Shown: one piece after another, positions 50,046-64,000 of the stretch
Numbering within the stretch: the stretch's first letter is position 1
Layout: every line of letters begins with the position of its first letter
Virus genome (UHGV): UHGV-0218015
Length of the DNA stretch: 64,000 nucleotides
Reading direction: 5' to 3' (one strand)
From: a virus
Notes under the pieces: model-generated
What the model saw: the letters and a program-made list of their open reading frames with translations, nothing else
Told to the model about the DNA's origin: nothing
Database searches by the model: none
Made by a program: the position numbers and the translations under genes

Positions 50046-50052
50046 TTGATTC

Positions 50053-50112: not shown

Positions 50113-50643
50113 ATGGCAGCTACTAACCAGATGATGTTAGTTGCGCTTTATAATGCTGCTAACACAGAGCTACCGCATCAGGTCACTGATAAAGAGGTAA
50201 CTTTTGGTCAACCTGTCGCTCTTGAAAAGGGCGATAAAAATACCAAAGTTACCATGACCGCACGTACAGAGTCTGAAAATTTTAAAGGCGCAATCGAACT
50301 GCATTACGATCGTCTGGAACCTGGCGTTATCGGACGCATTGAGGTAACGGACGATTTGGCTCTCTGGACTGGAGAAAACGAACTACGCGACCGATTACAG
50401 TTCTACATCAATAAAGTAAAACCTGACGACTCTATCGCGCCTGGTGACGTTGAGTACACCACCGAAGACCAGAAAGACGAACACGATAGCGTCACTCTGC
50501 GTACGGTAACTTGTACCGTTACTGAAAAGAACCTCCGTTATAAACCGGGTGTAATGGCAACTTTCGTAATTACGCCGAAAGTTGTTGATAATCGTATTGA
50601 CCTGGCCACCACCGACGGTGAACTTGACGGCTTTACTGCTTAA
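50113..50643 (+). CDS. member 4 of paralog family (176 aa)
   Basis: NQMMLVALYNAANTELPHQVTDKEVTF...NTKVTMTARTESENFKGAIELHYDRL. Confidence 0.55.
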   Translation: MAATNQMMLVALYNAANTELPHQVTDKEVTFGQPVALEKGDKNTKVTMTARTESENFKGAIELHYDRLEPGVIGRIEVTDDLALWTGENELRDRLQFYINKVKPDDSIAPGDVEYTTEDQKDEHDSVTLRTVTCTVTEKNLRYKPGVMATFVITPKVVDNRIDLATTDGELDGFTA

Positions 50644-50667
50644 TCGCTAAGTCAACTACTACAACAA

Positions 50668-50720
50668 AAAATAATAAGTTTACCTACCTCCTTTACGGAG
50701 GTAGGTACTTTTTTATTTTA
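50668..50720. terminator. bidirectional terminator between convergent + and - gene blocks
   Basis: Stem TACCTACCTCC / TTTAC / GGAGGTAGGTA flanked by an A-run upstream and TTTTTTATTTTA downstream. Confidence 0.8.
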
Positions 50721-51387
50721 TCCCCATTTCCAAAGCGTACGCTCGGATGGTATCATAATCACGCCGCTCGGCTAAAAGCCGAAGCTCTTTTTTCTGCTCG
50801 GTTTTCTGCCCATGCAATTTCTGATCACGTTTCACAATCGCTGCCATCAGTTCTTTGCATTGTTCCAACGTGAACGGTTCTATTCGTGCATTCGACGTAT
50901 CCAACCAATATTCCGGGGCGGTTTCAGACTGAATATACTGACTTAACATCTGTCGCGATGCGTCGTCTGTTTGGAAATAACACCCATTTAACTTAATGGG
51001 TGCATAACGCTGTTCCTCATAAAGACGTTCCATCTCTATCATGATTTTCTGAACATCTTGATAGATATAACGTGCAGTTGATCGAACGTTGTTTCGTATT
51101 TCTTCTAAATCAATCTCAAGAACATCAGCGATAAATTCTTTCGCTTTCTGTAGAGTGAAATTAGCCTCAATCTCCGACATATCGTAACTACGCATCTGTT
51201 CGATTGCGGCCTTATCTTCCAACCCATCGATTAATTTGTAGTGTAGAAGCGCACAAAAACCCGCACGACCACGATCCTCGTTGCCAATTCGTTCCATGTA
51301 ATTACCGTGGCGATCGATTGGAAGCCCTCGTGAGAAATAACGTTGACGTATTTCCTCTTTCGTTAAGCCTTCGTCAATAACAGACAT
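50713..51387 (-). CDS. hypothetical protein (224 aa), last gene of the rSAM/Cys-rich operon
   Basis: - strand ORF overlapping upstream gene by 25 nt; ends at bidirectional terminator. Confidence 0.5.
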   Translation of the reverse strand: MSVIDEGLTKEEIRQRYFSRGLPIDRHGNYMERIGNEDRGRAGFCALLHYKLIDGLEDKAAIEQMRSYDMSEIEANFTLQKAKEFIADVLEIDLEEIRNNVRSTARYIYQDVQKIMIEMERLYEEQRYAPIKLNGCYFQTDDASRQMLSQYIQSETAPEYWLDTSNARIEPFTLEQCKELMAAIVKRDQKLHGQKTEQKKELRLLAERRDYDTIRAYALEMGIK

Positions 51388-51935
51388 TCATCTTCTCCTT
51401 TAACTAAACCTAGCTCAATTAACAATTCAAAATCGATTTGGCGAAATTTGTTATCAAAACCAGAATCCCAATCGATGTGTAATCCTTGTCGTTCTTCATC
51501 GGTAAGTTCAGGATAAATTAAATCATGGAACGCTTCACGTTCCTCGTAAAATCCATCGATAGTAGAATCTGGATTCCGCATTGCGTAAATCGTGATGCCC
51601 GGAAAGGATAATCCTAATGCTGTTATAGATTCGACGCTTGGTTCTTGCAAGGCCCTGCGTAATAGCACGATTTTATGTCGTGGAAAATCTAGTACACGTT
51701 GTTCAAACCCAGGATTCCGTTTCTCAATTTCTGTAACTGAAAGATCGGTGAGTTCTGTGCAATACATTGGGATAACTACAGTTACTCCGTGGCGAATTAA
51801 TAATCGTTTAACATCGTCAGTGAAGTCTTCACCATTAATTTGCACATAACAACCAAACAATTTTGTAGTTTCTAAAAATTTTTCCAGAAAACGGAATTTA
51901 CGCTTCGTAATATTGTGGATCAGAATTGGCTTCAT
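51363..51935 (-). CDS. hypothetical protein (190 aa) in rSAM/Cys-rich operon
   Basis: - strand ORF overlapping the SPASM rSAM gene end by 38 nt. Confidence 0.5.
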   Translation of the reverse strand: MKPILIHNITKRKFRFLEKFLETTKLFGCYVQINGEDFTDDVKRLLIRHGVTVVIPMYCTELTDLSVTEIEKRNPGFEQRVLDFPRHKIVLLRRALQEPSVESITALGLSFPGITIYAMRNPDSTIDGFYEEREAFHDLIYPELTDEERQGLHIDWDSGFDNKFRQIDFELLIELGLVKGEDECLLLTKA

Positions 51936-53220
51936 CTTTGGTTTCTCTCAATTGTTTTTCTTTCTGGGTACGTTCACGTACGCAACGAGGGCAATAACAC
52001 ATGCTATTGTCATGAAAATCTTTCACTGACGTCGTGCCCATTTTCTGTTTCCAATATTCCGCAACCATCAACTTTGCAGTTGTCCAGCCGCATTGACGGC
52101 GTTCAGCGTGATAAGCTTTGCGATCTTCTAGCGTCCCTTCTCCATTCTCGTAAGATGCAGCCGCACAACTACCACAAGCGTGCTTCATTGGACAACCTAA
52201 ACAGGTTTCAGGATAGTTGGTGTATTGCGTCTGAATCTCTTCCAGCAATTTCCCGTCATCTAAGCTAACGAATTCCCGGCCAACTAATTCAAATACGGCA
52301 GAACGTGATGTTACGGTTGACATGAAACGGTTACAACCGAAGATCTTACGATCAAATCCTAAGCAGGTCATGTGTGTTAACGTACCGCAGAACGGGCGTA
52401 AACGTTCTGGATTCAAACGTACAGTATCGTTATACAATAACTGATCACGCCAGTTTGGTTCCCAGATAGTATCAAAATCTAACCCGTCTGGAATGATGTG
52501 CGACAAAGTGTTACGTGGGTTGGTGTGTAAGCCCTTCTCAACCCAATAATCAACCACGTCCATCATCTGCAATGCGATTGAAGTAGCCATGCTCCGTGGC
52601 ATAATGTCTTCGAAGGTTACGTTGCCAGAAATAGTTCCGCCGCCAGTAATATCAATTAATGATTTCATTCCAGCAGCATAGAACGGTAACGTTTCCAACG
52701 TAAAGGTCGCTTTTACACCAAGTTCTGCAATACCGACTTCTTTTAAGTAGTTATAGCCCCGCACAGCGGCCTCGTAAGATCCTTCACGAGTTGTTGTAAA
52801 AATCCGGTACTTATCGTGCGATTCGGGCAATCCATCAATAGACACGCCGATAGAAAGCCTGTCTTTCCAACGTTCAATAATTTCTCTATTCAAAGGTCTA
52901 TCTAACAACGTTCCGTTAGTAGAGATGCTAAACATAAACGGCCGATTATGTTTTTCGCATAACTCTTCTGCGGTTTCAAATGCCGCCTTTAATAGTTTAG
53001 GCTGCATAAACGGCTCACCACCGATGATATCGATAACGACCTCGATGTTTGTCAGATCTTTATCTCGTTCAAAACAAGCGTGTAGAAAATCAACAATATC
53101 CGCCGCTTTGTTATTACGGGGATACTTACGTTCGTAACAATACTCACAGTCCAAGTTACACGATAAATTTGTAACAATTTGATAAGTCAGTTGTTTTGGA
53201 TAACTATTTTCTTGACTCAT
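51898..53220 (-). CDS. radical SAM enzyme with C-terminal SPASM-like auxiliary Cys cluster domain (440 aa), putative peptide-modifying maturase
   Basis: N-terminal CNLDCEYC (C-x3-C-x2-C), GGEP SAM-binding motif, C-terminal CGTLTHMTC...GC and CLGCPMKHACGSC (C-x2-C-x5-C-x2-C) clusters. Confidence 0.8.
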   Translation of the reverse strand: MSQENSYPKQLTYQIVTNLSCNLDCEYCYERKYPRNNKAADIVDFLHACFERDKDLTNIEVVIDIIGGEPFMQPKLLKAAFETAEELCEKHNRPFMFSISTNGTLLDRPLNREIIERWKDRLSIGVSIDGLPESHDKYRIFTTTREGSYEAAVRGYNYLKEVGIAELGVKATFTLETLPFYAAGMKSLIDITGGGTISGNVTFEDIMPRSMATSIALQMMDVVDYWVEKGLHTNPRNTLSHIIPDGLDFDTIWEPNWRDQLLYNDTVRLNPERLRPFCGTLTHMTCLGFDRKIFGCNRFMSTVTSRSAVFELVGREFVSLDDGKLLEEIQTQYTNYPETCLGCPMKHACGSCAAASYENGEGTLEDRKAYHAERRQCGWTTAKLMVAEYWKQKMGTTSVKDFHDNSMCYCPRCVRERTQKEKQLRETKDEANSDPQYYEA

Positions 53221-54142
53221 TTTCCGCCCCTCTATTACGCTCTGCCATCACTACACGACGAATGTACTCGTAAGCTTCTACACCTATTGAGGAGGCTAGT
53301 TGGTTACACCCTGCTTTTGTAGTTATTGGTACATTTTTAAGTTGGTTTTCTTCCCCGTCCGCGTCTATCCTGAGACTTTCGCTACAGACATTACAAGCAT
53401 GATCGAAGAATCTGTTTACAATAAAACCGCAGTCTCTAGAATTTAGAACGTTTAATCTTTCTATATTCTCCTGAATTCTAAAATACCCGTAAATAAAGTT
53501 CATAACGTGATCGGGAGATAACGGTTTTGGCATGTTTTTATCTAGTAATAAGGACATGGAACGAAAACCGTAATGATAGATAGCAGTATGTAATTGAATG
53601 ATATCTTCATGCCATCTTTTGTTGGATAAATTCTCCCTCGTAACAACAGCCCAAGTGTTAACATTATTCAAGCTGTAAATTACTTCTAACGCTTCATGAC
53701 AATTATCATCAATAAAGCGCTTAAAAGGCCGTTCGGAAAGATTAAACCCATCGATGCTAACATATATAGCATCGAATTGTTTTAACAACGGTAGATGCGA
53801 TTTACGCATTTTTAAACCGTTCGTGAACATCTGGTGTTTGAGTTCAGGACGGATCGTTTTTAATTCGTCGACAAACGCCTCAATCTTTCGAGTTGCCAGT
53901 AGCGGTTCACCGCCAGTCCACTGAATTTCAGTAATGGTTGGGTTAGACGCCAACGCTTTCAAAATTCGTTCACGTTGAAACTCTCGCGGAGAATCTTCAC
54001 GATGCATGTAATAGGCTCCGCCGCAGAAGCTACAGTCCAGATTACATTTGGATGTAGCAACTACGGACAATACGGTGGGTTTATTGTATAAACGATTCGA
54101 TAACCTTGGCTCTACGTCGGTTGTCATTGCAGGTGAGTCCAT
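53204..54142 (-). CDS. radical SAM enzyme (312 aa), paralog of 56177..57091
   Basis: SKCNLDCSFCGG (C-x3-C-x2-C), QWTGGEPLL; C-terminal C-x12-C-x2-C; three nucleotide-identical patches with the paralog. Confidence 0.8.
   Translation of the reverse strand: MDSPAMTTDVEPRLSNRLYNKPTVLSVVATSKCNLDCSFCGGAYYMHREDSPREFQRERILKALASNPTITEIQWTGGEPLLATRKIEAFVDELKTIRPELKHQMFTNGLKMRKSHLPLLKQFDAIYVSIDGFNLSERPFKRFIDDNCHEALEVIYSLNNVNTWAVVTRENLSNKRWHEDIIQLHTAIYHYGFRSMSLLLDKNMPKPLSPDHVMNFIYGYFRIQENIERLNVLNSRDCGFIVNRFFDHACNVCSESLRIDADGEENQLKNVPITTKAGCNQLASSIGVEAYEYIRRVVMAERNRGAENESRK
53457..53539. repeat. 83-nt patch 100% identical to 56421..56503 (between radical SAM paralogs)
   Basis: CTTTCTATATTCTCCTGAATTCTAAAATACCCGTAAATAAAGTTCATAACGTGATCGGGAGATAACGGTTTTGGCATGTTTTT present in both genes; further identical patches 53782..53818 = 56747..56783 and 54002..54055 = 56966..57019. 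Confidence 0.85.
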
Positions 54143-54149
54143 CTATTTT

Positions 54150-55037
54150 TTAAATATAGCCAATGGATAACAAAGGATCGTCGTAAGCGTTAACTCCAGG
54201 TTTTAATACAAACGGTGAATTGTAAGCCTCAATAATACGATTAAGGTCTTTATAACGCACGTTTAAACGTTCTAGATCCGCTAACGTTACGTTACGTTCC
54301 AATACCGCCGACACTGCCGCTTTTTCTTCATCAGTTAACGTGACTTTCGTCATTAAGAAACTAACAAGTTTCGCTAAATCTGCTTCCGATGACGGATGTT
54401 CACCAATACGTGTTTGAATTAAATGCTGCATCCATGGTTTACGAATACGTTTTGTGATTTCATGTTCATCTGTAAGGGCAACCCATACTGAACGTTCACG
54501 ATCCCACATAAATTTGTAACTGTACGCCATCAGATCTGCTAAACAGTTGATGCCAAGTTCCTCGTAACCTTCTATTTCAATATACGGTTCAGTATCAACA
54601 TAGTTTTTTGTTTCTACAGGAACCAGGGCATAAAAGTACGGGAATGAACCAAGATAGTCTGGAGACCACCAACGTCGTGCTACAGGCTTCGCATTCAACT
54701 CTTTAAATGGCGTAAAGAACAATTCCAAATCTACAGAATTATTCAGAATACCGTCACTAAAGAAATATTTACCGTCAACCAATTTACCGCGTAAATCTGA
54801 ATCACCGGTAAACACCACTACGCTTTCTGCTGTCAGATCGCGTATTTTAAAAGTGTTTTCTACTGAATAGTTATTGCGATCGGTAAAAAAACGACCACGC
54901 ACTTTGGGCCATTCGCCAGGTAACTGGGTTAACAAACGAACTTTATCTTCCAAATGAGCGCGTATTGAATCGGGGGAAGAAATATGAAGTGGGTGGTTGA
55001 AAATTGTTTTATAGGCTAAATGCAAATCGTTTTTCAT
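54150..55037 (-). CDS. hypothetical protein (295 aa) in rSAM/Cys-rich operon
   Basis: - strand ORF, 7 nt downstream gap to rSAM gene. Confidence 0.5.
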   Translation of the reverse strand: MKNDLHLAYKTIFNHPLHISSPDSIRAHLEDKVRLLTQLPGEWPKVRGRFFTDRNNYSVENTFKIRDLTAESVVVFTGDSDLRGKLVDGKYFFSDGILNNSVDLELFFTPFKELNAKPVARRWWSPDYLGSFPYFYALVPVETKNYVDTEPYIEIEGYEELGINCLADLMAYSYKFMWDRERSVWVALTDEHEITKRIRKPWMQHLIQTRIGEHPSSEADLAKLVSFLMTKVTLTDEEKAAVSAVLERNVTLADLERLNVRYKDLNRIIEAYNSPFVLKPGVNAYDDPLLSIGYI

Positions 55038-55049
55038 TGATTACTCCAA

Positions 55050-55568
55050 TTATTTTACGGTCAATCTGACGTTCAAGGTATAGAACCCGCCACGCCATTG
55101 CCTGCCGGTAACTTCAAATTCTGCAGTAAAGCCGTTTGATTTACTCGGTTGCTGCTTAATCGCCATGCTTCCGCCGGAATTACTTAATACTTCTAATGAG
55201 ATAGAAGCAGAAGATGCATTACCGATAGAGTCTATCTTAAAACTAGCCGCGTCTGTAAAATTAACAGTGATACCATTACCCATTGCAACTTGAGGGTAGG
55301 CGTAGGACTTTCCAGACAGTAACGATTTAAAGACCCTTATCGGTTTCTCTCTACCGGTTGACGTTACGCATTGAATAAAGACAGCCCCAGTAGAGAAATT
55401 GATACGAACAGTATCTTTAGCGTGTAGCTTAGACTCAACATAAACAACGGCTTTGTTGTCGTAGGTTGGTCTTGAAGGGGTTGGCGTAGAACCACCGCTA
55501 GAGGGCTTACTTACCCCCCCCCGCCCCCTTACTACAGCTACCGCTGCACGACCAACTACATCCGCCAT
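55050..55568 (-). CDS. hypothetical protein (172 aa) with Gly/Ser/Pro-rich N-terminal linker; 5' end overlaps Cys-rich peptide gene C across a G-homopolymer
   Basis: Only in-frame ATG is at 55568, 62 nt inside gene C; N-terminal codons span GGGGGCGGGGGGGGG (C9-G-C5 on + strand, 55514-55528). Confidence 0.4.
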   Translation of the reverse strand: MADVVGRAAVAVVRGRGGVSKPSSGGSTPTPSRPTYDNKAVVYVESKLHAKDTVRINFSTGAVFIQCVTSTGREKPIRVFKSLLSGKSYAYPQVAMGNGITVNFTDAASFKIDSIGNASSASISLEVLSNSGGSMAIKQQPSKSNGFTAEFEVTGRQWRGGFYTLNVRLTVK

Positions 55569-55716
55569 TACAATTATAATGACTTAAAGGTAATCCTGCG
55601 AGATTGTTGGTTGAGGAAACCGTTCCTTGGTTTGCAATATAGTTGTTTGCATTAGCGGTGGTGATATATCCCTCCGCCGTTACTAATCTGTCGCGTATGT
55701 TTTTAAGACTTATCAT
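55507..55716 (-). CDS. Cys-rich peptide C (69 aa): conserved leader plus short C-x-x-x repeat core; putative RiPP precursor
   Basis: MISLKNIRDRL leader; core HYNCNGGCSWSCSGSCSK parallels peptides A and B; starts 3 nt after the stop of peptide B. Confidence 0.55.
   Translation of the reverse strand: MISLKNIRDRLVTAEGYITTANANNYIANQGTVSSTNNLAGLPLSHYNCNGGCSWSCSGSCSKGAGGGK
55514..55528. repeat. homopolymeric tract C9-G-C5 (+ strand) at the junction of peptide C and the 172-aa ORF
   Basis: TTACCCCCCCCCGCCCCCTT read directly from sequence. Confidence 0.9.
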
Positions 55717-55719
55717 TTC

Positions 55720-56118
55720 TTATCTTCCAGTACACGATTGCTGACATCCGCCTCGACATGAACCTGAACATGTTCCGGTGCAACTACTTGAACAACCGCC
55801 CGAGCAATTACCTGTGCACCCTCCTGAGCAGGTACTGCTACAACCTGTGCAACCTGTACTACATCCTGAAACACAGTTCGCTGAACAGGAAGAACCGCAG
55901 CCGCCGGAGGCGTTGCCGGTACAGCCGCCCGAACAACTTGAGCACGTCCAGCTACAGCTACCTCCACAGTCATAGTGATTTCTCGGCTGTCCTCCAAACA
56001 GATCGCTATTATTAGTGGCTTTACCACGAATATAGTTCTGCACCGCACCTGTATTTTTTAATGCAGTAGAGTCTATGTTATCTAGCCGGGCCTTTAAAGA
56101 AGATAAACCAATCGCCAT
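55720..56118 (-). CDS. Cys-rich peptide B (132 aa): about 50-aa leader plus (C-x-x-x)n core with about 21 Cys; putative RiPP precursor
   Basis: Leader LSSLKARLDNID...; core DCGGSCSWTCSSCSGGCTGN...CSGGCSSSCTGTCSGSCRGGCQQSCTGR with Cys at nearly every fourth position. Confidence 0.65.
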   Translation of the reverse strand: MAIGLSSLKARLDNIDSTALKNTGAVQNYIRGKATNNSDLFGGQPRNHYDCGGSCSWTCSSCSGGCTGNASGGCGSSCSANCVSGCSTGCTGCSSTCSGGCTGNCSGGCSSSCTGTCSGSCRGGCQQSCTGR

Positions 56119-56176
56119 TTTAATACCTACTGGTTTAGTGCCCCCTAGGACACATTATAATTCACTTTCTGTAAAA

Positions 56177-57091
56177 TTATCGTAGTTTTTCTGAGACTCT
56201 ATTCTTAGCCCCTACCACACGACGTATATAGTCGTAAGCATCTAATCCAACCTTTCTGGCCAAGTCACTACAGCCGTGTTGCGTTACGATTTCAACGTTC
56301 TTTACTTGGTTCTGGGCACCGTCAGACTCAATGCGAAAACAACGACTACATGTGTTACAGGGTTCATCAAATAACGCATTTAGCGTAAACGCACATTCAC
56401 TTCGATTGGACGAATTCAGTCTTTCTATATTCTCCTGAATTCTAAAATACCCGTAAATAAAGTTCATAACGTGATCGGGAGATAACGGTTTTGGCATGTT
56501 TTTGTCCAAAACCAGCGACATCTCACAAAAACCATAATGGTAAATGTGGTTATGTAACGCAATTATATCTTCGTACCAACGTTTATCCCCAATACGCTCG
56601 CGTGTCAAAACCGCCCAAGTACGAATATTTTTCAATTCGTAAATTGTCTCCAAAACCTCGTATTGTTTTTCTTCGATAATCCGCATGAACGGACGCTCTG
56701 ATTCTTTGAATCCATCCATGCTAAAAAAGATACTATCAAAACCCTTTAACAACGGTAGATGCGATTTACGCATTTTTAAACCATTGGTATACAGGTAATG
56801 TTCGCAACGAGGATACTTCTCCCTTATCTCTTCTATAAGGGTATCAATTTTACGCGTGGCAAGTAATGGTTCGCCCCCTGACCATTGGATATTTGTGATA
56901 GTCGGGTTATTTTCCAGCGCCTCGATAATACTTTCCTTTTGTACTTCTGCGGTTGTATCCTCTCTATGCATGTAATAGGCTCCGCCGCAGAAGCTACAGT
57001 CCAGATTACATTTGGATGTTGTAATCACGTTTAACGTTCTCGGATTACTGTAAAGCTTATCGGATACCGTCGGTCTAGTAAGTTCTTCCAT
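56177..57091 (-). CDS. radical SAM enzyme (304 aa), paralog of 53204..54142
   Basis: SKCNLDCSFCGG, QWSGGEPLL; shares identical nucleotide patches and PKPLSPDHVMNFIYGYFRIQENIERLN with the paralog. Confidence 0.8.
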   Translation of the reverse strand: MEELTRPTVSDKLYSNPRTLNVITTSKCNLDCSFCGGAYYMHREDTTAEVQKESIIEALENNPTITNIQWSGGEPLLATRKIDTLIEEIREKYPRCEHYLYTNGLKMRKSHLPLLKGFDSIFFSMDGFKESERPFMRIIEEKQYEVLETIYELKNIRTWAVLTRERIGDKRWYEDIIALHNHIYHYGFCEMSLVLDKNMPKPLSPDHVMNFIYGYFRIQENIERLNSSNRSECAFTLNALFDEPCNTCSRCFRIESDGAQNQVKNVEIVTQHGCSDLARKVGLDAYDYIRRVVGAKNRVSEKLR

Positions 57092-57110
57092 TCGAATTGA
57101 TCCTTATTTT

Positions 57111-57506
57111 TTATGGGTTAGAACAACCACCTGCACAAGAACCACTACACCCCGAGGAACAACGTCCAGCACATCCCCCACTACAAGTCCCACTACATCC
57201 TGAACAACCACCCGAACACGTTCCGCTACAACCACTGCATTGATTACCACACGCAGAGGAACAGCTTCCTACGCACACCGATGTACATGTACCTGAACAA
57301 CTCGTACAACCATGCGTACAACCGTTTGAGCATGTCCAGCTACAGCTACCTCCACAATCTAATCGACCGGGTGTCCAACCTGAAAATGAATCAGCAGCGT
57401 TATGTGCTTTCGACGCAACTTGCGGATCAACACGTGGGCCAGTTGCCATTTGGTTCTCTACGTTGGTGATTCGGTCACGCACATTTTTAACACTGATCGC
57501 CATCAC
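57111..57506 (-). CDS. Cys-rich peptide A (131 aa; ATG at 57503 likely start): leader plus (C-x-x-x)n core with about 23 Cys; putative RiPP precursor
   Basis: Leader MAISVKNVRDRITNVENQ; core DCGGSCSWTCSNGCTHGCTSCSGTC...CSGGCAGRCSSGCSGSCAGGCSNP; AAGGA RBS. Confidence 0.65.
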   Translation of the reverse strand: MMAISVKNVRDRITNVENQMATGPRVDPQVASKAHNAADSFSGWTPGRLDCGGSCSWTCSNGCTHGCTSCSGTCTSVCVGSCSSACGNQCSGCSGTCSGGCSGCSGTCSGGCAGRCSSGCSGSCAGGCSNP

Positions 57507-57515
57507 GTATCCTTA

Positions 57516-57560
57516 AAATAAAAAAGAATGGAGGACTACGTCCATAAACATAGTTCCTCC
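57516..57560 (-). terminator. putative rho-independent terminator or attenuator (- strand) between fibre genes and the Cys-rich/rSAM cluster
   Basis: On - strand: GGAGGAACT...AGTCCTCC hairpin followed by ATTCTTTTTTATTTT. Confidence 0.5.
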
Positions 57561-57570
57561 TGTAATTAAA

Positions 57571-58770
57571 TTATTTCGTACCTGCTTCTGCCTGAACGTC
57601 ATCACGGGACGTCAGGTTAGCGTTAACGTGTACTGAAGCCTGAACCACACCACCGTATTTCTTGTGGAGATAACCTGTGTGTGGGTTATCTGCCGCAATA
57701 TGGTTTTGTAGGTTCTGATTCGCCTGACTGATTGCGTTCGTGTTATTCGCAACCTGTTGTTTAAGCGCATCCAAGTTTTGTTGCAGATTATCAATTTTCT
57801 GATCGGTCTCATTACCCCGCTGTTCTAACGCAGCAATGCGCTGAATCGCTTGGTTGAGTTTGGTGTTCAGATCGTTGATATTTTTCTGTAACTGTAACAC
57901 TAACGAGTTTAGGTTCGCCAGCGCCAGTGCCATTTTCTGATAGTTTTGTGCAACGACGTTAAGTTGGTCGTTCCACGCTTCCAGAGATTTGACAACAGCA
58001 TCAATACGTTTTCCTAACGCTTCGTCCGCTTTCTTCAATGCATTGATATCGGCAATCGTTGCATCAATGGCTGTCTGAACACTGCGAATTAAAGCGCGGA
58101 TCTCCGTTTCCGTTAACCCGTTAACCTGATGAATATCCAGATGGTGGACATTACCAGTAGAGTTAATGTGCGCGTTCAGCGCGTCCAGGAAATCGTTTTT
58201 CAGGCTATCGAGAATCGCTTTGATGTTCTCAAGCTGTACAGCATCACCCGCAGTTATCGCATCTTTAATGCCAGCGAGCACTGTAATGATATATTCGAAG
58301 CCGTAAATATCACCGACGTCTTTATACGTTGGTGCTGAAGGAAACGTGTCCGGCACATTTCGCAAGTCTTTAAAGCCAACAGTTCGATTATCGAGTTTCA
58401 ACTCGGCAATCGCTTGCTCAATCGCGGTCACATTTGCAGACTGAGGACCACCAACTACTTGCGCCGATACCGTGATATCGGTCGGAATCGCGGTGTTCGT
58501 TACAACAACCGCCATTACCACTTCCCGGTTCTTCGTCAATTTCTCATAAGCCGGGTGTGCAAAAATCAGTTCATAGTCCGTTCCACGCTCATATGTCGCT
58601 CCAGGTCGATTGGCAACCCGCAAGCGGAACGTATCGGCATAAAACGGACCATCAGGGAAAGCAAACGCACGGTTAACTTTGCCTGTACCTAACGTAATCT
58701 GACGCTCCACGGCGTTAGAGGTTAGGGTTCCCGTTAAATCTAAAGGGTATTGGTATACAATGGAGGCCAT
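57571..58770 (-). CDS. fibre-like structural protein with long C-terminal coiled coil (about 399 aa from ATG 58770; track ORF extends to 58896)
   Basis: AAGGAGAG RBS 6 nt upstream of ATG 58770; N-terminal FPDGPFY motif shared with the 1728-aa protein; heptad-rich region (LEQRGNETDQKIDNLQQNLDALKQQV). Confidence 0.6.
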   Translation of the reverse strand: MASIVYQYPLDLTGTLTSNAVERQITLGTGKVNRAFAFPDGPFYADTFRLRVANRPGATYERGTDYELIFAHPAYEKLTKNREVVMAVVVTNTAIPTDITVSAQVVGGPQSANVTAIEQAIAELKLDNRTVGFKDLRNVPDTFPSAPTYKDVGDIYGFEYIITVLAGIKDAITAGDAVQLENIKAILDSLKNDFLDALNAHINSTGNVHHLDIHQVNGLTETEIRALIRSVQTAIDATIADINALKKADEALGKRIDAVVKSLEAWNDQLNVVAQNYQKMALALANLNSLVLQLQKNINDLNTKLNQAIQRIAALEQRGNETDQKIDNLQQNLDALKQQVANNTNAISQANQNLQNHIAADNPHTGYLHKKYGGVVQASVHVNANLTSRDDVQAEAGTK

Positions 58771-58810
58771 GGCCACTCTCCTTAATCCGAGACGTCCTTG
58801 TCTCGTGGCG

Positions 58811-61800
58811 TTAAGATGTAAACATAAGATTGAACTGGAGTTTATCGATATCGCGAGTTTGTGCTGGGTTAACCGCATCGTACGTGGTTGCCACATAGAC
58901 CGTTAACGTGCCGTCAGAATACGCGGTTTTCACCGGTGGTGTAGTCCCTGTCTGTCCATCAGTTACAATGACGACAGGTTGAGCCGGGAGTTGACGAAAC
59001 TGACTCTTAACCGCTTTATAGACCAAACCAGATTGTGCCGCTTGCTCTGTGGCGGTGTACACGATAAACGGTGTGTCGATATCTGTCTGTTTAATGACAG
59101 TGTTCGTCTCAACGTCAATCAGCTGAACAGCACCAAATTTGGTCCGGTAACTATCGTATTCATTTTTTGGAATGACAAACGTAGCATGAAGGCGGACTTC
59201 GGCGGCTGGCTTAAATCCCGCGTGTTCTTTTTCCAGGTAACTGTTAGCAGTTAGCGTTACTGTCTGTTCAGTCATCGTACCGCCAGACTGATTTAGCCCG
59301 TAACGAACTTGAGTTATACCTGTCGGGGCCGCAAGCCTGATTTTCAGTCTACGATTAGCAGTACCAGGATCGCCAGGTACTTTAACACGCAGACTCAATG
59401 CCAGATATGCATACTCGCCAGTAGTCGGTTTCGTATACGCGCCCAACCACTTCATGTTCGCGGTTGCTGCTTGTTTGTTCTCAGAAGCAGTAGCCGCTGC
59501 AACGTTCGCAGCAACCGCTTTCTGCCAGAACTGGTCAGCGCAGTTCTCATACGCCACCCTGCTGATACTTTTATAACCTGAATAGGTTTCCTGTACCGGC
59601 AACCTGGAACGTGTTGTAATCCCGGACAACGTATTCCATTTCTGACCATCGACATACCCAGCACCCTTGCTCGCAGATGCTGTAACGACTTTAACGGGTT
59701 TATTAACCAGCGTTAATAGTGGGCCAGTTTTCCTGTCGAATGCCTGCGCCACATCGTGTTGATCAACAATCGATGCATGATTTTCCAGCTCTTTTACGCG
59801 ACCTAACCGTTTTACTTTATCGATACTGATATCCGTAATACGGTTCGAATCAGTGGTTACAGTCCCAACAAACAGTCTCGACGAGGTATCAGCTAACTGC
59901 TCTAAACCGATGCGGTATTGGGCAGTAGAACCGACCACTTCAGCATAAACGTAGAACGTCTGGTTAGCATGATTAGTCGGGAATTCATCGCTTAAATCAA
60001 CGGACCATCTTGGAACGGTATATCTTTTATTTCCAAAACTTAACTCGGTTTCCTCCGTCAGATAGAAATTCCAACCGCTCTGTGTTTGTACGCCGCCAAT
60101 AATAATCTTATCGATAACAGTATATTTTTTGTTAAACAAATCAGAGATTCTATACTGTTCGCCACCGAGATACAACTCGTTTAAATCTTCCGAGTTACAA
60201 GTCAATAGCGCGATGCCCGAGAGATCGGGTATATAGACTTCAGATGTATTATTCAGCTTATACGTATAGCCCCACGCCCGATGAATTTCGCCGGTAAACC
60301 ATTCGCCTTTTTTAGTCAAGTTTATCCCAAAAGCAAAAGAAATCTCTGATCCTACAAGATTCCCACCAACCAGGTTATGTATTGAGAATCTGAACTTTTG
60401 TCCGTCTTGCGAATAAAGGAAAACTTGACCGGAGCGTTGTTTAAGTTCACCATTAAAAGCTGTGGGTGAGAGATTAATGGCGTTACTGGCCACTTTTTCC
60501 CTGAACGTCATCATTCTCGCTTCCGAACTAACGAACCTTATGACCCCGTTGGTTATAGTCGGTTTTACCTGAAAGAAGTAAAAAGCAAACTTATTTACCC
60601 CGTCAGTGTCTTTATAGATAAGACTCACTATCGCGATACAAAGCGGACCACCAGACATCGTTTGACCAAGCACCCAAAAGGACAAACTGTAGTTGTTCTT
60701 TTTGGTCTTAGCTACGCTAATCCGCTCATAGGCGTTGCCGTTAGATGCCCCGGAGAACTGGCTGGACTGAACAATATTAGTCAGCTTCGCCCATTCTGCC
60801 GCATCGATAGACAACCGATCACTACCCACCGTAGTGGTACCGTAAACAACTGTACACGGTTTACTTTCGGCACCGATAAAATAAGCCCCTTCTAGTAGGC
60901 CGTTCGGTATTTCTGGCGTAACAACCAGCGGTATATTTGTCAATATGCCGTATTCGTTCGCTGTTTTTTCAACACGGCGGGATGTTGGTCCAAAACCACC
61001 GTATCCAGGATAACCATAGGTCGTATTTTTATCATATTCGGCTTCAATGAAATAAGCCGATTTTTGATGTTTAAGCCATACTTTGTTTGTTCCTGGGAAG
61101 AACAATGGGAAGGTCATAGACGGTTTCCACACCGAACCCACCACAGGGTTTATCCGATTTTCAAACGTAGATTGCCCCTCATACCCCACACTCAACTTAA
61201 CATAGTCCAGATAACTAACTCCTTCTGGGAGTTTCTGGTAATGGAGAGATGGTGCGAGTTGTTTTTCTGTCGAACAGCAGCAAGAATAAACCATATCACC
61301 GACACAGATTCTATTGTCGGCCATATAGCCAGAACTTCGAGTAGCCCATTTCCATTTCAGCTCTATTTTTGTTCCGTCTTTTAAGTAACAACCTGTAGTA
61401 TCGATTTTGATTGGGAAGACGTTAGTTGTCTCTAACCCAACCTCCCCGGTTAATAGGTCAAGACGATAAGCACCATTCCATGGCCCGAATGTGGTACCTT
61501 TCGTTGAAGAAAAACCAAGACAAACACCAGACACGCCGACGGTTAACAAGTGACCGTCCTTAACAACGGGCGTTATCCATCTTGACGACCCTCTAGTTAA
61601 TTGTAAGTTCACTGTCCACAACGCTTTGCCTTCCGCAGTGAAGTAGGCAAGACGCTTCGTATTCGGATTATCTACATCGAACGCGCCAGGTTCAACCAAA
61701 TCGGCACACTTACCGATTTTTCGTGTAGACCTTAAATCAACCTGTTCAAACCGATCGGTTTTATTAAGCCGCAATAAGCCAACACGGAACATGGGTTGTG

Positions 61801-63997
61801 GGGTATCCTTAATGTAGTCCACCAGAGTATTGTTTTTCAGATCGGCCATTAGCATCGTACGCAAAACATAGACGCCGTTATCGGCTATGACCACACGATC
61901 CATGAACATATTCGGCACAAATTCCCATGTTGTTTCTGAAACAAATTCTGAGAAAGTTACCAACCTGACATCGGTATGTTTGGTGTAATCCATTGAACCG
62001 TTCAGTTTAACTAAATAATAATTATTGTCGCTGCCCTTCGCTATAAATGCTTCGGTACCAGTAACGGTAATTTCTTTTAGTTCCACCCCCGGATAATTCG
62101 TCTCTAACCCTTTCGGCTTATAACGGAAAGTTGTTTTGTAAATTTCACCGAGACTTTTGTCGTTTTTTAACCCAGCAACAGCGTAATAAATACCCTCAGT
62201 TCCCGGAAGGGCGGATTTAGAGCTAATTAAAGCATAAAGCTTACCTTGTTGTACCCCTATAACCATCTGGAGCGCATCCATGTTTTTACCATAACCTTCG
62301 TAATTACCCATCGACAAGATCGGCAATATCGAATTGTTGGTATATTTGCTCCCGGCCGTTGTCCATGAGGGCAAGAGGGTATTCAGTTTATCAGAGACCT
62401 TCTTAATCTCTTTTGCGAACAGCCACCCTTGGCGTGATGTGACGGCTTTATCATTCGTGGTATCAATCGCATCCCACAGCTGTAAGATACCGTCCACTGT
62501 TGCGCTACCAATCGGGACATTATCCAAATCAGCGGTAGTGTGCGTGTGTACCTTCAAACTTTTATTTTTCAGCACGTTCGCTAATGCTTTTGTTACCGGT
62601 TTAGCGATGGGTGTGGTGTTATTCATCTTATCGATACCGAAATCGGCCTTCGTTAAGGTTAACACCATGTTGTCGCCTGTCTTAACAAACCCTTTACCGT
62701 TAACCGTGTAGTCGTCGTCAACGTACAAGTCCAACCGGTTTTTTAACTCGGTCACAGCCTTTTGGGAAATAGCAGTGCCTAGCGCTACAGAGGTTGCGAT
62801 ATTCGTAATCGAAAACACCCCATAAACCGACTCGGTTGCTGTGGGAATATTCGCGTTCAACGTTAGTGGGTTAGACTGCTTCGCTGTACCGTACGGTTTT
62901 ACGGTATCTGACGATTTGAAATAGGCATTCGCTTCAAGTAACGTTACAGACGTCAGGTACATGTTCACCATTTCTGGTGTAACGAGATACACAGAGTTAT
63001 AGACCGGTGCTAATACATCCTGTTCTGACCCAGAGTGTACCCAAAGCGTATTCAGACCCGCACTGAACTCAACCGCTAAACCGGATTCGTTGTTGTCCTG
63101 GTCTGCTTTAATCACTAACGGCTGCGGTGAGGTAATTAACCACTTATCACCACGGATGCTGATGATGTGTCCGCCCGGCGTTTTAAACGTTAATTCATTA
63201 CCGTTCGTGGTGCCCCAACGACCGTAAACGGTACCGAGGGCTTCACCCATTAGCTGTTCAACGTCTGATTGCTCAATGCCCGCCGAACCCATCAGCGTAG
63301 CCAGTTGGTCAATTGTCAACCCAAACGCTTTTGTAGCGTCAACAGCACGTCCTAAAACCGGAAGGGCCCCAACGTCATTGGTCGTATACTGGTGAGCGTT
63401 AGGATTAAGGTGGTGTTGGTATAGTTCTTCATCGAAAATCTTTTTACCGTTCTCGTAAATCAGGTTAGTGACTTCGGTGAAGGCCGCATCTAACTCTGTT
63501 GAACGCTGAACGATTTTCTTACGGATATCGTTCAACGCTTTAACGACCTCGTCCCTCAGAATAGCTTCTTCTAAGTTAGCAGGGGGGTCGATTGGTTGAA
63601 TAACCGGCGCGTACGCCATTAACTCCGACCAGTCCACGTTACGCGGGTCTTTCAGGTCAGTACGAACTAAGAACTTCCCGATTTCAGATTGCGGTACACG
63701 ATACTGCCGTGCTACCCCTAAAATCTCATATTCGATTTCTGTTGCAGTAAGCAACATAAACCCGCCATAAATCTGATCTTGTTCAGCTTCTGCGAGTTCT
63801 TTAAAGTAATAGCCTAAATAGTAGTCCAACCCCTCAATCAGAGTACGACGTCCGTTAGGCGCGGTATCGTCGGCTACTGTGAGTTTTAATCCGATACGAT
63901 AAAAAGGTCCTTCAGGCGGAATGACCACGTTAAATCGGTTAGGGTACGTCGTTGTGCTTAGCGTACCGTTAAACTGCGCCGCGTCTTCTCTCGGCAT
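58811..63997 (-). CDS. very large tail fibre or baseplate-like structural protein (1728 aa); start is 3 nt from window edge so N-terminus may be incomplete
   Basis: 5.2-kb ORF, Gly/Thr/Tyr/Asn-rich; N-terminal PPEGPFY...GLDYYLGYYFKEL parallels the N-terminus of the 57571 protein. Confidence 0.6.
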   Translation of the reverse strand: MPREDAAQFNGTLSTTTYPNRFNVVIPPEGPFYRIGLKLTVADDTAPNGRRTLIEGLDYYLGYYFKELAEAEQDQIYGGFMLLTATEIEYEILGVARQYRVPQSEIGKFLVRTDLKDPRNVDWSELMAYAPVIQPIDPPANLEEAILRDEVVKALNDIRKKIVQRSTELDAAFTEVTNLIYENGKKIFDEELYQHHLNPNAHQYTTNDVGALPVLGRAVDATKAFGLTIDQLATLMGSAGIEQSDVEQLMGEALGTVYGRWGTTNGNELTFKTPGGHIISIRGDKWLITSPQPLVIKADQDNNESGLAVEFSAGLNTLWVHSGSEQDVLAPVYNSVYLVTPEMVNMYLTSVTLLEANAYFKSSDTVKPYGTAKQSNPLTLNANIPTATESVYGVFSITNIATSVALGTAISQKAVTELKNRLDLYVDDDYTVNGKGFVKTGDNMVLTLTKADFGIDKMNNTTPIAKPVTKALANVLKNKSLKVHTHTTADLDNVPIGSATVDGILQLWDAIDTTNDKAVTSRQGWLFAKEIKKVSDKLNTLLPSWTTAGSKYTNNSILPILSMGNYEGYGKNMDALQMVIGVQQGKLYALISSKSALPGTEGIYYAVAGLKNDKSLGEIYKTTFRYKPKGLETNYPGVELKEITVTGTEAFIAKGSDNNYYLVKLNGSMDYTKHTDVRLVTFSEFVSETTWEFVPNMFMDRVVIADNGVYVLRTMLMADLKNNTLVDYIKDTPQPMFRVGLLRLNKTDRFEQVDLRSTRKIGKCADLVEPGAFDVDNPNTKRLAYFTAEGKALWTVNLQLTRGSSRWITPVVKDGHLLTVGVSGVCLGFSSTKGTTFGPWNGAYRLDLLTGEVGLETTNVFPIKIDTTGCYLKDGTKIELKWKWATRSSGYMADNRICVGDMVYSCCCSTEKQLAPSLHYQKLPEGVSYLDYVKLSVGYEGQSTFENRINPVVGSVWKPSMTFPLFFPGTNKVWLKHQKSAYFIEAEYDKNTTYGYPGYGGFGPTSRRVEKTANEYGILTNIPLVVTPEIPNGLLEGAYFIGAESKPCTVVYGTTTVGSDRLSIDAAEWAKLTNIVQSSQFSGASNGNAYERISVAKTKKNNYSLSFWVLGQTMSGGPLCIAIVSLIYKDTDGVNKFAFYFFQVKPTITNGVIRFVSSEARMMTFREKVASNAINLSPTAFNGELKQRSGQVFLYSQDGQKFRFSIHNLVGGNLVGSEISFAFGINLTKKGEWFTGEIHRAWGYTYKLNNTSEVYIPDLSGIALLTCNSEDLNELYLGGEQYRISDLFNKKYTVIDKIIIGGVQTQSGWNFYLTEETELSFGNKRYTVPRWSVDLSDEFPTNHANQTFYVYAEVVGSTAQYRIGLEQLADTSSRLFVGTVTTDSNRITDISIDKVKRLGRVKELENHASIVDQHDVAQAFDRKTGPLLTLVNKPVKVVTASASKGAGYVDGQKWNTLSGITTRSRLPVQETYSGYKSISRVAYENCADQFWQKAVAANVAAATASENKQAATANMKWLGAYTKPTTGEYAYLALSLRVKVPGDPGTANRRLKIRLAAPTGITQVRYGLNQSGGTMTEQTVTLTANSYLEKEHAGFKPAAEVRLHATFVIPKNEYDSYRTKFGAVQLIDVETNTVIKQTDIDTPFIVYTATEQAAQSGLVYKAVKSQFRQLPAQPVVIVTDGQTGTTPPVKTAYSDGTLTVYVATTYDAVNPAQTRDIDKLQFNLMFTS

Positions 63998-64000
63998 CGT

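What the first reader, a model, noticed from the sequence alone, without database searches (positions are those of the whole stretch)
57516..58770. The Cys-rich/rSAM cluster is transcriptionally attached to the tail fibre genes via a hairpin/T-run attenuator
On the - strand the order is the 1728-aa fibre-like protein, the coiled-coil fibre protein, a hairpin plus T-run (57516..57560), and then peptide A with its own AAGGA RBS, with no recognisable promoter motif in between. Expression would depend on read-through from the late structural operon, which suggests the modified peptides are made together with fibres and may be virion- or adsorption-related rather than a lysogenic-conversion cargo.
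Basis: inference. Interest (0 to 1): 0.55.

Follow-up and report, generated by a model that had tools for sequence, protein, structure and literature searches.

The report
Terminator hairpin hiding a phage promoter
Between a giant phage's tail-fibre gene and its cysteine-rich peptide/radical-SAM cluster, the reported hairpin plus T-run is real and conserved. It overlaps a conserved phage-specific promoter-like motif, so the cluster probably has its own transcription start and need not rely on read-through from the fibre genes.

Summary
The window is from a jumbo phage related to Salmonella phage SPN3US (phiKZ-like, uses its own RNA polymerases).

**Anatomy: confirmed.** The gene order, the hairpin 57560..57530, the T-run 57529..57515, the AAGGA site and peptide A are all as described. 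The hairpin is far more stable than shuffles. It is kept in four phage genera, and its two arms co-evolve.

**Premise "no promoter": wrong for this family.**
- TTACA (57565..57561), a 14-base spacer and TATG (57546..57543) lie across the hairpin, with TATG at its apex.
- This geometry equals the mapped phiKZ middle promoter P78M.
- In SPN3US, TTAC[AG]-N14-T[AG]TG occurs 35 times, against 3-7 at other spacings.
- 24 of those sites sit just upstream of non-structural genes.
- In the window, 4 of 5 such sites are upstream-intergenic, against 1 of 21 at other spacings.
- "AC" and TATG are invariant in all 17 relatives. The T-run is not: it is absent in Derbicusvirus.

**Best model (inferred, no transcript data).** The site is a compact terminator/promoter junction. 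Fibre transcripts stop or pause at the hairpin. Cluster transcripts start at G 57543 in the loop and so escape it.

Read-through may add to expression but is probably not required. SPN3US virion proteomics did not detect the cluster's proteins.

The parts
58811..63997 (-). 1728-aa baseplate/fibre protein, homologue of SPN3US gp168
   Evidence: ORF. SPN3US gp168 is a 188-kDa virion tail protein of paralog family C (PMC5694885). Synteny.
57571..58770 (-). 399-aa coiled-coil virion protein, homologue of SPN3US gp167
   Evidence: 79% identical to the SPN3US 'virion structural protein'. Matches phrog_2163 at 1e-103. gp167 was detected in virions.
57561..57565 (-). TTACA, the predicted -22..-18 promoter element, preceded by the A/T-rich TAATTTAA
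   Evidence: Exact match to TTACR-N14-TATG. The 'AC' is invariant in all relatives. Same element and spacing as phiKZ P78M, AAAATTACC-N14-TATG (PMC4666361).
57530..57560 (-). Conserved hairpin. Its 5' arm fills the promoter spacer, and TATG is the apical loop.
   Evidence: -17.7 kcal/mol, z = -5.9. Hairpins in 9 divergent relatives give z from -4 to -7. Native hairpins average -18.8 kcal/mol against -8.7 for arm-swapped chimeras.
57543..57546 (-). TATG, with the predicted transcription start at G 57543, 40 nt upstream of the peptide A ATG
   Evidence: Invariant in all 17 sequences from four genera. phiKZ-type promoters start at the G of TATG (PMC4666361, PMC12809450).
57515..57529 (-). T-run ATTCTTTTTTATTTT. 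It is the terminator tail for upstream transcripts and a U-rich leader for transcripts starting at 57543.
   Evidence: Present in Seoulvirus and Asesino-like phages, weak in Machinavirus and Kwan, absent in CR5, Derbicus and Phobos.
57510..57514 (-). AAGGA ribosome-binding site of peptide A
   Evidence: AAGG is invariant in alignment A1.
57111..57503 (-). Peptide A: 130 aa, a leader followed by a Cys-rich CXXX-repeat core
   Evidence: TIGR04114 at 20.2 bits (cut-off 20). phrog_6085 at 3e-40.
56177..57091 (-). Radical SAM protein, 304 aa. This extra copy is found only in the window's closest relatives.
   Evidence: PF04055 at 8e-14. Present only in the window, L003 and L009.
56119..56176 (-). 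Gap before peptide B, holding TTACA-N15-TGTG and a small hairpin. A possible second, weaker promoter-like site.
50713..56118 (-). Rest of the cluster: peptide B (56118..55720), peptide C (55716..55507), a 172-aa ORF, a 295-aa protein, rSAM 312 aa, rSAM/SPASM 440 aa, a 190-aa protein, and a DUF4376 protein of 224 aa
   Evidence: The order is conserved in four genera.
50681..50707 (.). Terminator-like hairpin scored on both strands, at the end of the cluster

Best explanation
The 64-nt gap between the fibre gene and peptide A is a compact terminator/promoter junction of a phiKZ-like jumbo phage.

- Promoter. A phage-specific promoter of the phiKZ 'middle' type (A/T-rich + TTACA at -22..-18, 14-nt spacer, TATG at -3..+1) lies directly after the fibre gene's stop codon.
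- Hairpin. A conserved inverted repeat is built into this promoter. Its 5' arm is the 14-nt spacer, its loop is the TATG, and its 3' arm and T-run are the first ~30 transcribed bases.
- Upstream transcripts. RNA coming from the fibre genes contains both arms, folds the hairpin and (in this clade, where a T-run follows) terminates or pauses there.
- Cluster transcripts. RNA initiated at G 57543 in the loop lacks the 5' arm and cannot form the hairpin. It runs through a U-rich 40-nt leader into peptide A and the rSAM genes, as far as the terminator-like hairpin at 50707..50681.

The cluster is therefore most likely an autonomous transcription unit, switched on by the promoter class used for non-structural genes. 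Read-through from the fibre operon would be an optional extra.

Shown: the hairpin, its covariation, the motif, its fixed spacing, its genome-wide upstream-of-gene placement, and its conservation.
Inferred: that the motif is an active promoter, its timing, and that the hairpin terminates.
For: Identity of the phage:
- It is a relative of SPN3US, with about 80% protein identity.
- Such phages transcribe with their own virion and non-virion RNA polymerases (PMC7598289).

The motif at this site:
- Window sequence: TTACA-GGAGGAACTATGTT-TATG.
- SPN3US sequence: TTTACG-AGCCGGACTATGTT-TATG.

The motif genome-wide:
- SPN3US spacing scan, TTAC[AG]-Nk-TATG: 22 hits at k=14 against 0-4 at k=6..23.
- SPN3US with T[AG]TG: 35 hits at k=14 against 3-7 at k=11..17.
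- 24 of the 35 lie in RefSeq-intergenic DNA, 18-180 nt upstream of a same-strand gene, where intergenic DNA is about 4.4% of the genome (annotation). Four of the 24 (around positions 317, 550, 2794 and 2840) lie in unannotated stretches at the start of the record, so what they precede is less certain.
- Window: 4 of 5 hits at k=14 are intergenic and upstream of genes, against 1 of 21 at the other ten spacings.
- CR5: TTAC gives 9 and TAAC gives 8 at k=14, against 0-4 elsewhere, so CR5's TAACG version of the site fits its own genome.

Match to an experimentally mapped promoter:
- phiKZ P78M reads AAAATTACC-N14-TATG, the same geometry.
- The phiKZ middle motif AAanTTACc lies near -24, and the start is at the G of TATG (PMC4666361).

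Conservation:
- 'AC', TATG and AAGG are the invariant columns across four genera, while the stem sequence changes.
- The two arms co-evolve: natives average -18.8 kcal/mol, chimeras -8.7.

The same design elsewhere:
- SPN3US 200931, upstream of the mazG gene.
- CR5 locus position 34141.

Gene class: the annotated downstream genes of this motif class are non-structural, such as thymidylate kinase, SMC, an exoribonuclease, GNAT and HslV. SPN3US gp161-166 are absent from the virion proteome.
Against: - No transcript mapping exists for any SPN3US-like phage in the libraries searched. Promoter activity, start site and timing are all inferred.
- In vitro, purified phiKZ non-virion polymerase did not use middle promoters, so the enzyme form that reads this class is unknown even in phiKZ (PMC4666361).
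- Asesino-like and phiEaH2 phages have AAACA instead of TTACA. That variant shows no spacing peak in SPN3US. Kwan has a 15-nt spacer.
- The hairpin is conserved in Derbicusvirus without any T-run. Termination therefore cannot be its only, or universal, role.
- SPN3US gp168 and gp167 are expressed although hairpin/T-run elements precede gp168 with no obvious promoter. Read-through of such elements evidently happens in this operon.
Confidence: 0.6

Rival explanations
1. The hairpin plus T-run is only a leaky terminator, there is no promoter, and the cluster is expressed solely by read-through from the late fibre operon, so it is made together with the fibres.
For: - The hairpin plus T-run is canonical in this clade.
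- The genes are co-directional and tightly packed, and the cluster always follows the fibre gene in four genera.
- Hairpin/T-run elements with no recognisable promoter also separate other co-expressed virion genes. Examples are the window's 49515 and 50113 paralogs and SPN3US gp169/gp168.
- phiKZ transcription units overlap extensively through terminator read-through (PMC10914365).
Against: - It does not explain why 'AC' and TATG stay invariant at a fixed 14-nt spacing while the stem changes.
- It does not explain why this exact motif recurs upstream of genes genome-wide.
- Derbicusvirus has no T-run.
- The cluster's proteins are not in the SPN3US virion proteome.
Confidence: 0.15
2. A structured promoter. 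The inverted repeat works at the DNA level. Extrusion or easy melting presents the non-template TATG single-stranded at the loop to the phage polymerase, so the hairpin is part of promoter recognition rather than a terminator.
For: - phiKZ non-virion polymerase binds TATG on the non-template strand in opened DNA. Its extra specificity is proposed to come from the propensity of the DNA to separate (PMC12809450).
- TATG sits exactly at the apex in all 17 relatives.
- TATG sits at or next to the apex in the other hairpin-bearing sites: SPN3US 72661 and 200931, and CR5 34141.
- The hairpin persists without a T-run in Derbicusvirus.
Against: - 20 of the 22 strict TTAC[AG]-N14-TATG sites in SPN3US have no hairpin beyond background, so a hairpin is not needed for this motif class.
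- Hairpins with TATG in the loop are not enriched in the window overall: 64 observed against 71 in shuffles.
Confidence: 0.1
3. An RNA-level element other than a terminator. Candidates are a 3' stabilising stem-loop or processing site for the fibre mRNA, a protein-binding operator, or a leader mini-ORF whose translation opens the hairpin. In the window the mini-ORF is ATG 57552 to TAA 57514, MFMDVVLHSFLF; an in-frame ATG also sits at the apex (57545).
For: - Covarying stem with a conserved loop.
- An ATG is always at the apex, and a purine-rich 5' arm (GGAGGA, GAGGA) lies 9-10 nt upstream of it in several lineages.
- The hairpin is kept where no T-run exists.
Against: - The mini-ORF's length, sequence, frame and stop are not conserved (sequences, read by eye), and its putative Shine-Dalgarno is buried in the stem.
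- It explains neither the invariant T before ATG nor the 'AC' 15 nt upstream.
- No Rfam family matches.
Confidence: 0.1

Closest known systems
phiKZ middle promoters, for example P78M (Ceyssens 2014; Yakunina 2015, PMC4666361)
   Same: - An A/T-rich element ending in TTAC about 22 nt upstream of the start.
- TATG overlapping the start site.
- An identical TTAC-N-N14-TATG geometry in P78M.
- Placement upstream of mostly non-structural genes.
   Different: - A different phage lineage (Seoulvirus-like, enterobacterial host), with a sharper consensus: TTAC[AG], and T[AG]TG accepted.
- No start site has been mapped here.
- The 14-nt spacer and start region are occupied by a conserved hairpin, which is not described for phiKZ middle promoters.
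Intrinsic terminators of phiKZ-like phages (conserved stem-loop + TTAT; PMC10914365, PMC11512511)
   Same: A stable, moderately G+C-rich stem-loop (about 13 pairs with a bulge, 6 of them G-C) followed by a T-rich tail, placed right after a stop codon. Such terminators are often leaky, giving nested transcription units.
   Different: - The loop is sequence-conserved (TATG).
- The T-run is lost in one genus while the hairpin is kept.
- The usual arrangement in these genomes is terminator then promoter (hairpin, T-run, TTAC...). Here the promoter element comes first and the hairpin lies inside the promoter.
N4 virion RNA polymerase hairpin promoters
   Same: A phage polymerase promoter in which the key bases are displayed on a small DNA hairpin.
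   Different: This is an analogy only. The polymerase family is unrelated, and most sites of the present motif class have no hairpin.
CXXX-repeat peptide / radical SAM maturase systems (TIGR04114/TIGR04115) and PapB-type ranthipeptide maturases
   Same: - The downstream cargo is a set of leader + Cys-rich repeat peptides with an rSAM/SPASM enzyme.
- The best enzyme hits are TIGR04115 at 3e-34 and PapB at 2e-33.
   Different: - The enzyme scores lie far below the families' cut-offs: 119 against 350 bits, and 116 against 340.
- The system is phage-encoded, has two or three rSAM genes, and is embedded in a tail-fibre module.

Membership tests
Intrinsic (factor-independent) terminator | Stable, G+C-containing stem-loop directly after the upstream gene | tested here: met
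   31-nt hairpin starting 10 nt after the TAA stop. -17.7 kcal/mol, z = -5.9.
Intrinsic (factor-independent) terminator | U-tract immediately 3' of the stem, conserved with the hairpin | tested here: inconclusive
   Window: ATTCTTTTTTATTTT, with 6 T in the first 8 bases. The tract is weak in Machinavirus and Kwan and absent in CR5, Derbicus and Phobos, although the hairpin is kept.
Intrinsic (factor-independent) terminator | 3' ends of transcripts map to the T-run | not testable with these tools
   No transcriptome of this phage or of SPN3US was found.
Transcription attenuator (regulated leader terminator) | Terminator lies in a 5' leader downstream of the promoter that it regulates | tested here: not met
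   Upstream of the hairpin is the end of a coding gene. The only promoter-like motif places the start inside the hairpin loop, so its transcripts would lack the 5' arm.
Transcription attenuator (regulated leader terminator) | Conserved alternative (antiterminator) structure, leader peptide or ligand/protein sensor | tested here: not met
   The mini-ORF over the hairpin is not conserved in length, frame or sequence (sequences, read by eye). No Rfam leader or riboswitch matches. The only other pairing is between the A-tract and T-tract flanks.
phiKZ-type middle promoter | A/T-rich element ending in TTAC, centred about 22-24 nt upstream of the start | tested here: met
   TAATTTAATTACA, with TTAC at -22..-19. 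The SPN3US consensus is WWWT-TTAC-G. The phiKZ motif is AAanTTACc (PMC4666361).
phiKZ-type middle promoter | TATG at -3..+1, at the spacing seen in a mapped promoter | tested here: met
   N14 after TTAC[AG], as in phiKZ P78M. TATG is invariant in 17 relatives.
phiKZ-type middle promoter | Motif recurs genome-wide at fixed spacing, upstream of genes in sense orientation | tested here: met
   SPN3US: 35 hits against 3-7, with 24 intergenic and upstream. Window: 4 of 5 against 1 of 21. CR5: 17 against 2-7.
phiKZ-type middle promoter | Primary transcript 5' end at the G, with middle-phase kinetics | not testable with these tools
   Needs dRNA-seq or ONT-cappable-seq, or primer extension in a time course.
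Host sigma-70 promoter | -35 and -10 hexamers with a 16-18 nt spacer | tested here: not met
   No site lies in 57507..57570. Sigma-70-like sites in 49-64 kb are fewer than in shuffles, 15 against 27.
Early (virion polymerase) promoter of this phage | GATATATATTAC(C/T)TAGG(T/A)GAGAG-like motif | tested here: not met
   Exact copies lie only at + strand 18821, 37894 and 42267. None is in or upstream of the cluster on the - strand.
CXXX-repeat rSAM peptide system (TIGR04114/TIGR04115) | Precursor scores above the TIGR04114 cut-off | tested here: met
   Peptide A scores 20.2 bits and peptide B 22.3 bits, against a cut-off of 20. This is borderline.
CXXX-repeat rSAM peptide system (TIGR04114/TIGR04115) | Maturase scores above the TIGR04115 cut-off | tested here: not met
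   118.9 bits against a cut-off of 350. It is the best hit, tied with PapB at 116 against 340.

The most novel reading that the evidence does not exclude
The conserved, co-evolving inverted repeat is itself a promoter determinant. By extruding or melting easily, it hands the non-template TATG to the jumbo-phage multisubunit polymerase as single-stranded DNA at a hairpin loop, much as N4 virion polymerase reads hairpin promoters. The same sequence, once transcribed from upstream, would act as a terminator. This would supply part of the 'missing specificity' of the 4-base phiKZ-type promoter, and would show one element coding a stop for one transcript and a start for the next.
Probability: 0.1. 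Interest if true: 0.75.

Novelty: new variant of a known kind. Interest (0 to 1): 0.4.

Why it matters
- **Expression of the cluster.** The finding changes how this phage peptide/radical-SAM cluster should be read. It is probably an autonomous unit driven by the promoter class of non-structural genes, not a passive tail of the late fibre operon. Timing and virion association must be measured, not assumed from gene order.
- **A testable motif.** It gives a concrete candidate promoter motif, TTAC[AG]-N14-T[AG]TG, for SPN3US-like jumbo phages. I found no transcription map for them. The motif shows that the phiKZ middle-promoter geometry extends to enterobacterial relatives.
- **A compact design.** The arrangement (promoter spacer = 5' arm of the terminator, start site = loop) lets one 50-nt element end one transcript and begin another that is immune to the terminator. 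That is useful for annotation and for phage engineering.

Tried and rejected
- **Near-identity search.** Megablast of 55-59 kb against phage genomes found nothing. Protein-level searches were needed.
- **Sigma-70 scan.** It is uninformative for a phage with its own polymerases.
- **TATG-in-loop hairpins as a general class.** They are not enriched in the window: 64 observed against 71 in shuffles. Only 2 of the 22 strict motif sites in SPN3US have strong hairpins. I therefore dropped the idea that the hairpin is a general part of the promoter.
- **RNAalifold on a MAFFT alignment.** It gave no structure because the 3' arms were misaligned. I replaced it with single-sequence folds with shuffles and an arm-swap chimera test.
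- **-22 element variants.** TAAC and AAAC variants show no spacing peak in SPN3US. TAAC does peak in CR5.
- **Rfam.** No family matched.
- **Literature.** There is no paper on SPN3US transcription or on this cluster. The SPN3US infection time-course proteome (PMC6384053) is not held.
- **GC content.** The cluster is only slightly lower than the fibre genes, about 0.40-0.42 against 0.44-0.49. This is not decisive for horizontal acquisition.
- **Leader mini-ORF.** Considered and judged unlikely, because it is not conserved.
Full report
**What the window is.** Protein searches place it in the SPN3US group of phiKZ-like jumbo phages. The rSAM/SPASM protein is about 82% identical to SPN3US and the coiled-coil protein 79%. 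Nucleotide megablast found nothing, so this is a new relative. IMG/VR holds closer ones, 93-98% identical in the fibre protein. These phages carry a virion and a non-virion multisubunit RNA polymerase. phiKZ, the type member, develops independently of host RNA polymerase (PMC7598289; PMC4666361). The absence of sigma-70 motifs therefore says nothing about promoters.

**The observation.** On the - strand the order is exactly as reported:
- 1728-aa protein, 63997..58811. It is the homologue of SPN3US gp168, a virion tail protein.
- 399-aa coiled-coil protein, 58770..57571. It is the homologue of gp167, detected in virions.
- Hairpin, 57560..57530.
- T-run, 57529..57515.
- AAGGA, 57514..57510.
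- Peptide A, from the ATG at 57503.

The hairpin folds at -17.7 kcal/mol with z = -5.9, and none of 200 shuffles does as well.

**The cluster downstream.**
- Peptides A, B and C share a leader and a Cys-rich CXXX core. They give borderline TIGR04114 hits and match phrog_6085.
- There are two paralogous small rSAM proteins and one rSAM/SPASM protein. The latter's best hits are TIGR04115 and PapB, both far below cut-off.
- Three proteins of unknown function are present.
- A DUF4376 protein ends the cluster. This domain is common in tail-fibre-associated proteins; that point rests on my own knowledge.
- A terminator-like hairpin, scored on both strands, closes the unit at 50707..50681.
- The core order is conserved in Seoulvirus, Machinavirus, Wellingtonvirus and Derbicusvirus.
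- The extra rSAM right after peptide A occurs only in the window, L003 and L009.

**Comparative anatomy of the gap.** I took the sequence between the fibre stop codon and the peptide A start codon from 17 loci.
- Every one folds into a hairpin, at -13 to -25 kcal/mol. Nine representatives give z from -4 to -7.
- The stem sequences differ between lineages: GGAGGA/TCCTCC, CGGAC/GTCCG, GGGTCATG/CATGACCC, GAGGAC/GTCCTC, CACGGGC/GCCCGTG, GGGCGA/TCGCCC and GGGTG/CACCC.
- Swapping 5' and 3' arms between lineages destroys the fold. Natives average -18.8 kcal/mol and chimeras -8.7. The arms therefore co-evolve and the structure is selected.
- The T-run is not conserved. It is strong in the window's clade, SPN3US and Asesino-like phages, weak in Machinavirus and Kwan, and absent in CR5, Derbicus and Phobos, where the stem runs straight into GTTAAAGGAAGC.
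- Three things are invariant: the ribosome-binding site, a TATG at the hairpin apex, and an 'AC' 15 bases upstream of it.

**The invariant bases are a recurrent motif.**
- In the complete SPN3US genome, listing TATG in upstream regions showed many sites of the form T-rich-TTTAC(G/A)-N14-TATG.
- A spacing scan is decisive. TTAC[AG]-Nk-TATG gives 22 hits at k=14 and 0-4 at every other k from 6 to 23. Allowing T[AG]TG gives 35 hits at k=14 against 3-7 at k=11..17.
- By the RefSeq annotation, 24 of the 35 lie in intergenic DNA, 18-180 nt upstream of a gene on the same strand. Intergenic DNA is about 4.4% of the genome.
- Four of those 24 (around positions 317, 550, 2794 and 2840) lie in unannotated stretches at the start of the record, so what they precede is less certain.
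- The annotated downstream genes are non-structural: an HslV-like peptidase, thymidylate kinase, an HTH protein, GNAT, an SMC-like protein and an exoribonuclease. None is an annotated virion protein.
- A near-variant site (ATACG-N14-TATG, outside the 35) lies upstream of the mazG gene.
- In the window, 4 of the 5 k=14 hits are intergenic and upstream of a same-strand gene. Their G positions are 11510, 18109 and 23436 on the + strand and 57543 on the - strand. Only 1 of 21 hits at the ten other spacings is so placed.
- In 170 kb of CR5, both TTAC and TAAC peak at k=14 (9 and 8 hits, against 0-4). The TAACG at CR5's own peptide A site therefore fits that genome's consensus.

**Link to experiment.** phiKZ middle promoters carry AAanTTACc centred near -24. 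Some also carry TATG at the start site, and the G of TATG is the mapped start of late promoters (PMC4666361; PMC12809450). I read the mapped middle promoter P78M in the phiKZ genome. It is AAAATTACC-N14-TATG, the same geometry as here. In the window the motif is TAATTTAATTACA-GGAGGAACTATGTT-TATG (57565..57543). This predicts a start at G 57543 and a 40-nt leader.

**How the two elements fit together.**
- In most SPN3US sites of this class a terminator hairpin and its T-run come first and run into the TTTAC element. No hairpin surrounds the TATG.
- At the peptide A site there is no room for that, because the TTACA starts 5 nt after the stop codon. The hairpin lies inside the promoter instead. 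Its 5' arm fills most of the 14-nt spacer, TATG forms the loop or closes it, and the 3' arm and T-run are transcribed.
- A transcript started in the loop lacks the 5' arm and cannot terminate itself. A transcript arriving from the fibre gene has both arms.
- The same design, including a T-run, occurs upstream of the SPN3US mazG gene (ATACG-tattagggtgtcca-TATG-gacaccctacttatttttttt). It also occurs at CR5 locus position 34141 (TAACA-agggggacattcat-TATG-tcccccactacccttattttttt).
- A T-run-less version follows the SPN3US major head gene at 72661.

This is my preferred model. The structure and the statistics are shown. Promoter activity, timing and termination are inferred.

- The premise that no promoter exists is not tenable, so dependence on read-through is not required.
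- The promoter class and the SPN3US virion proteome argue against simple co-expression with fibres. The proteome contains gp160 and gp167-173 but not gp161-166.
- Two cautions apply. The RefSeq record of SPN3US does not annotate peptides A and C, and it annotates an out-of-frame ORF over peptide B. If the database used for that proteome was similarly annotated, which I could not check, those peptides could not have been identified.
- The strict conservation of the cluster's position within the tail-fibre module remains a genuine hint of a fibre-related role. Read-through can still contribute.

**Rivals.**
- *Pure read-through.* This leaves the invariant, fixed-spacing, genome-wide motif unexplained.
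- *DNA-level structured promoter.* It is attractive because phiKZ polymerase reads TATG on opened non-template DNA and the hairpin survives without a T-run. However, most sites of the class have no hairpin.
- *RNA-level role.* Options are a stabiliser, an operator or a leader mini-ORF. This cannot be excluded, but the mini-ORF is not conserved and no Rfam family matches.

**Novelty and score.** Both components are known kinds: phiKZ-type promoters and intrinsic terminators. New here are the sharp TTAC[AG]-N14-T[AG]TG motif for SPN3US-like phages, which I found described nowhere in the libraries searched, and the nested terminator-in-promoter arrangement conserved over four genera. I rate this a new variant of a known kind, of moderate interest (0.4). 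The anatomy is confirmed and the mechanism revised.

Noticed in passing
L001 10269..11298 (SPN3US NC_027402.1 about 143400..144220): The SPN3US RefSeq record does not annotate peptides A and C. Over peptide B it annotates an out-of-frame ORF (ACQ60_gp100). Several relatives annotate antisense ORFs there. The Cys-rich precursors are therefore largely missing from public annotation, and probably from proteomics databases.
   Followed up: partly
window + strand 18821..18832, 37894..37905, 42267..42278: Three exact copies of GATATATATTAC, within TCAGATATATATTAC(C/T)TAGG(T/A)GAGAG, each just after a terminator hairpin. They look like the early (virion polymerase) promoters of this phage, by analogy with the AT-rich early-promoter consensus reported for phiKZ.
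   Followed up: partly
window 56119..56176 (-); L003 and L009 equivalents: The gap between the extra rSAM gene and peptide B holds TTACA-N15-TGTG, followed by a small hairpin that differs compensatorily in L003/L009 (GTGTCC..GGGCAC against GTGCC..GGCAC). It may be a weaker internal promoter created with the duplication.
   Followed up: partly
window 56177..57091 and 55050..55568 (-): A second small rSAM gene lies directly after peptide A. It occurs only in the window, L003 and L009, which points to a recent tandem duplication of the peptide/rSAM module. The 172-aa ORF after peptide C has only 41-47-aa matches in relatives, overlaps peptide C, and may not be a real gene.
   Followed up: partly
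SPN3US (L019-L023) 229185-, 158671-, 161412-, 138239+; window about 49470 (+): Upstream of late structural genes (sheath, gp170, baseplate, gp160-like) there is (A/T)AGTATGA without a TTAC element. GTATGA is 6.8-fold enriched in upstream regions. It is probably the late promoter class. The window has ACTATGC about 45 nt upstream of the 49515 gene.
   Followed up: partly
window 28489..28520 (+): A strong 11-bp hairpin with TCTATG at the 3' end of its loop, followed by a long T-run. It lies between two + strand genes and has no TTAC element at the N14 position. The next gene probably starts at GTG 28553, not at the TTG 28466 listed by the ORF tool.
   Followed up: no
window 53751..53775 (-), inside the 312-aa rSAM gene: A perfect 9-bp inverted repeat with loop TATATGT (TCGATGCTA-TATATGT-TAGCATCGA) within coding sequence. 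It is probably chance. Conservation was not checked.
   Followed up: no
window 57514..57552 (-): A 12-codon mini-ORF (MFMDVVLHSFLF) runs from ATG 57552 across the hairpin and T-run and stops inside the peptide A ribosome-binding site. An ATG is always at the hairpin apex in relatives, but the ORF's length, frame and sequence are not conserved.
   Followed up: yes
window 49515..50643 (+): Two paralogous 176-aa genes, apparently related to the abundant SPN3US virion protein gp160 (assigned by size, abundance and genomic position, not tested). They are separated by a G-run hairpin plus T-rich tail and an AAGGA site, with no promoter-like motif of any class found here. This would be a better candidate for true read-through coupling.
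   Followed up: no
window 49000..64000: Sigma-70-like promoter matches are fewer than in shuffled sequence: 15 against 27.2 +/- 4.8. This is consistent with a genome that does not use, or avoids, host promoters.
   Followed up: no
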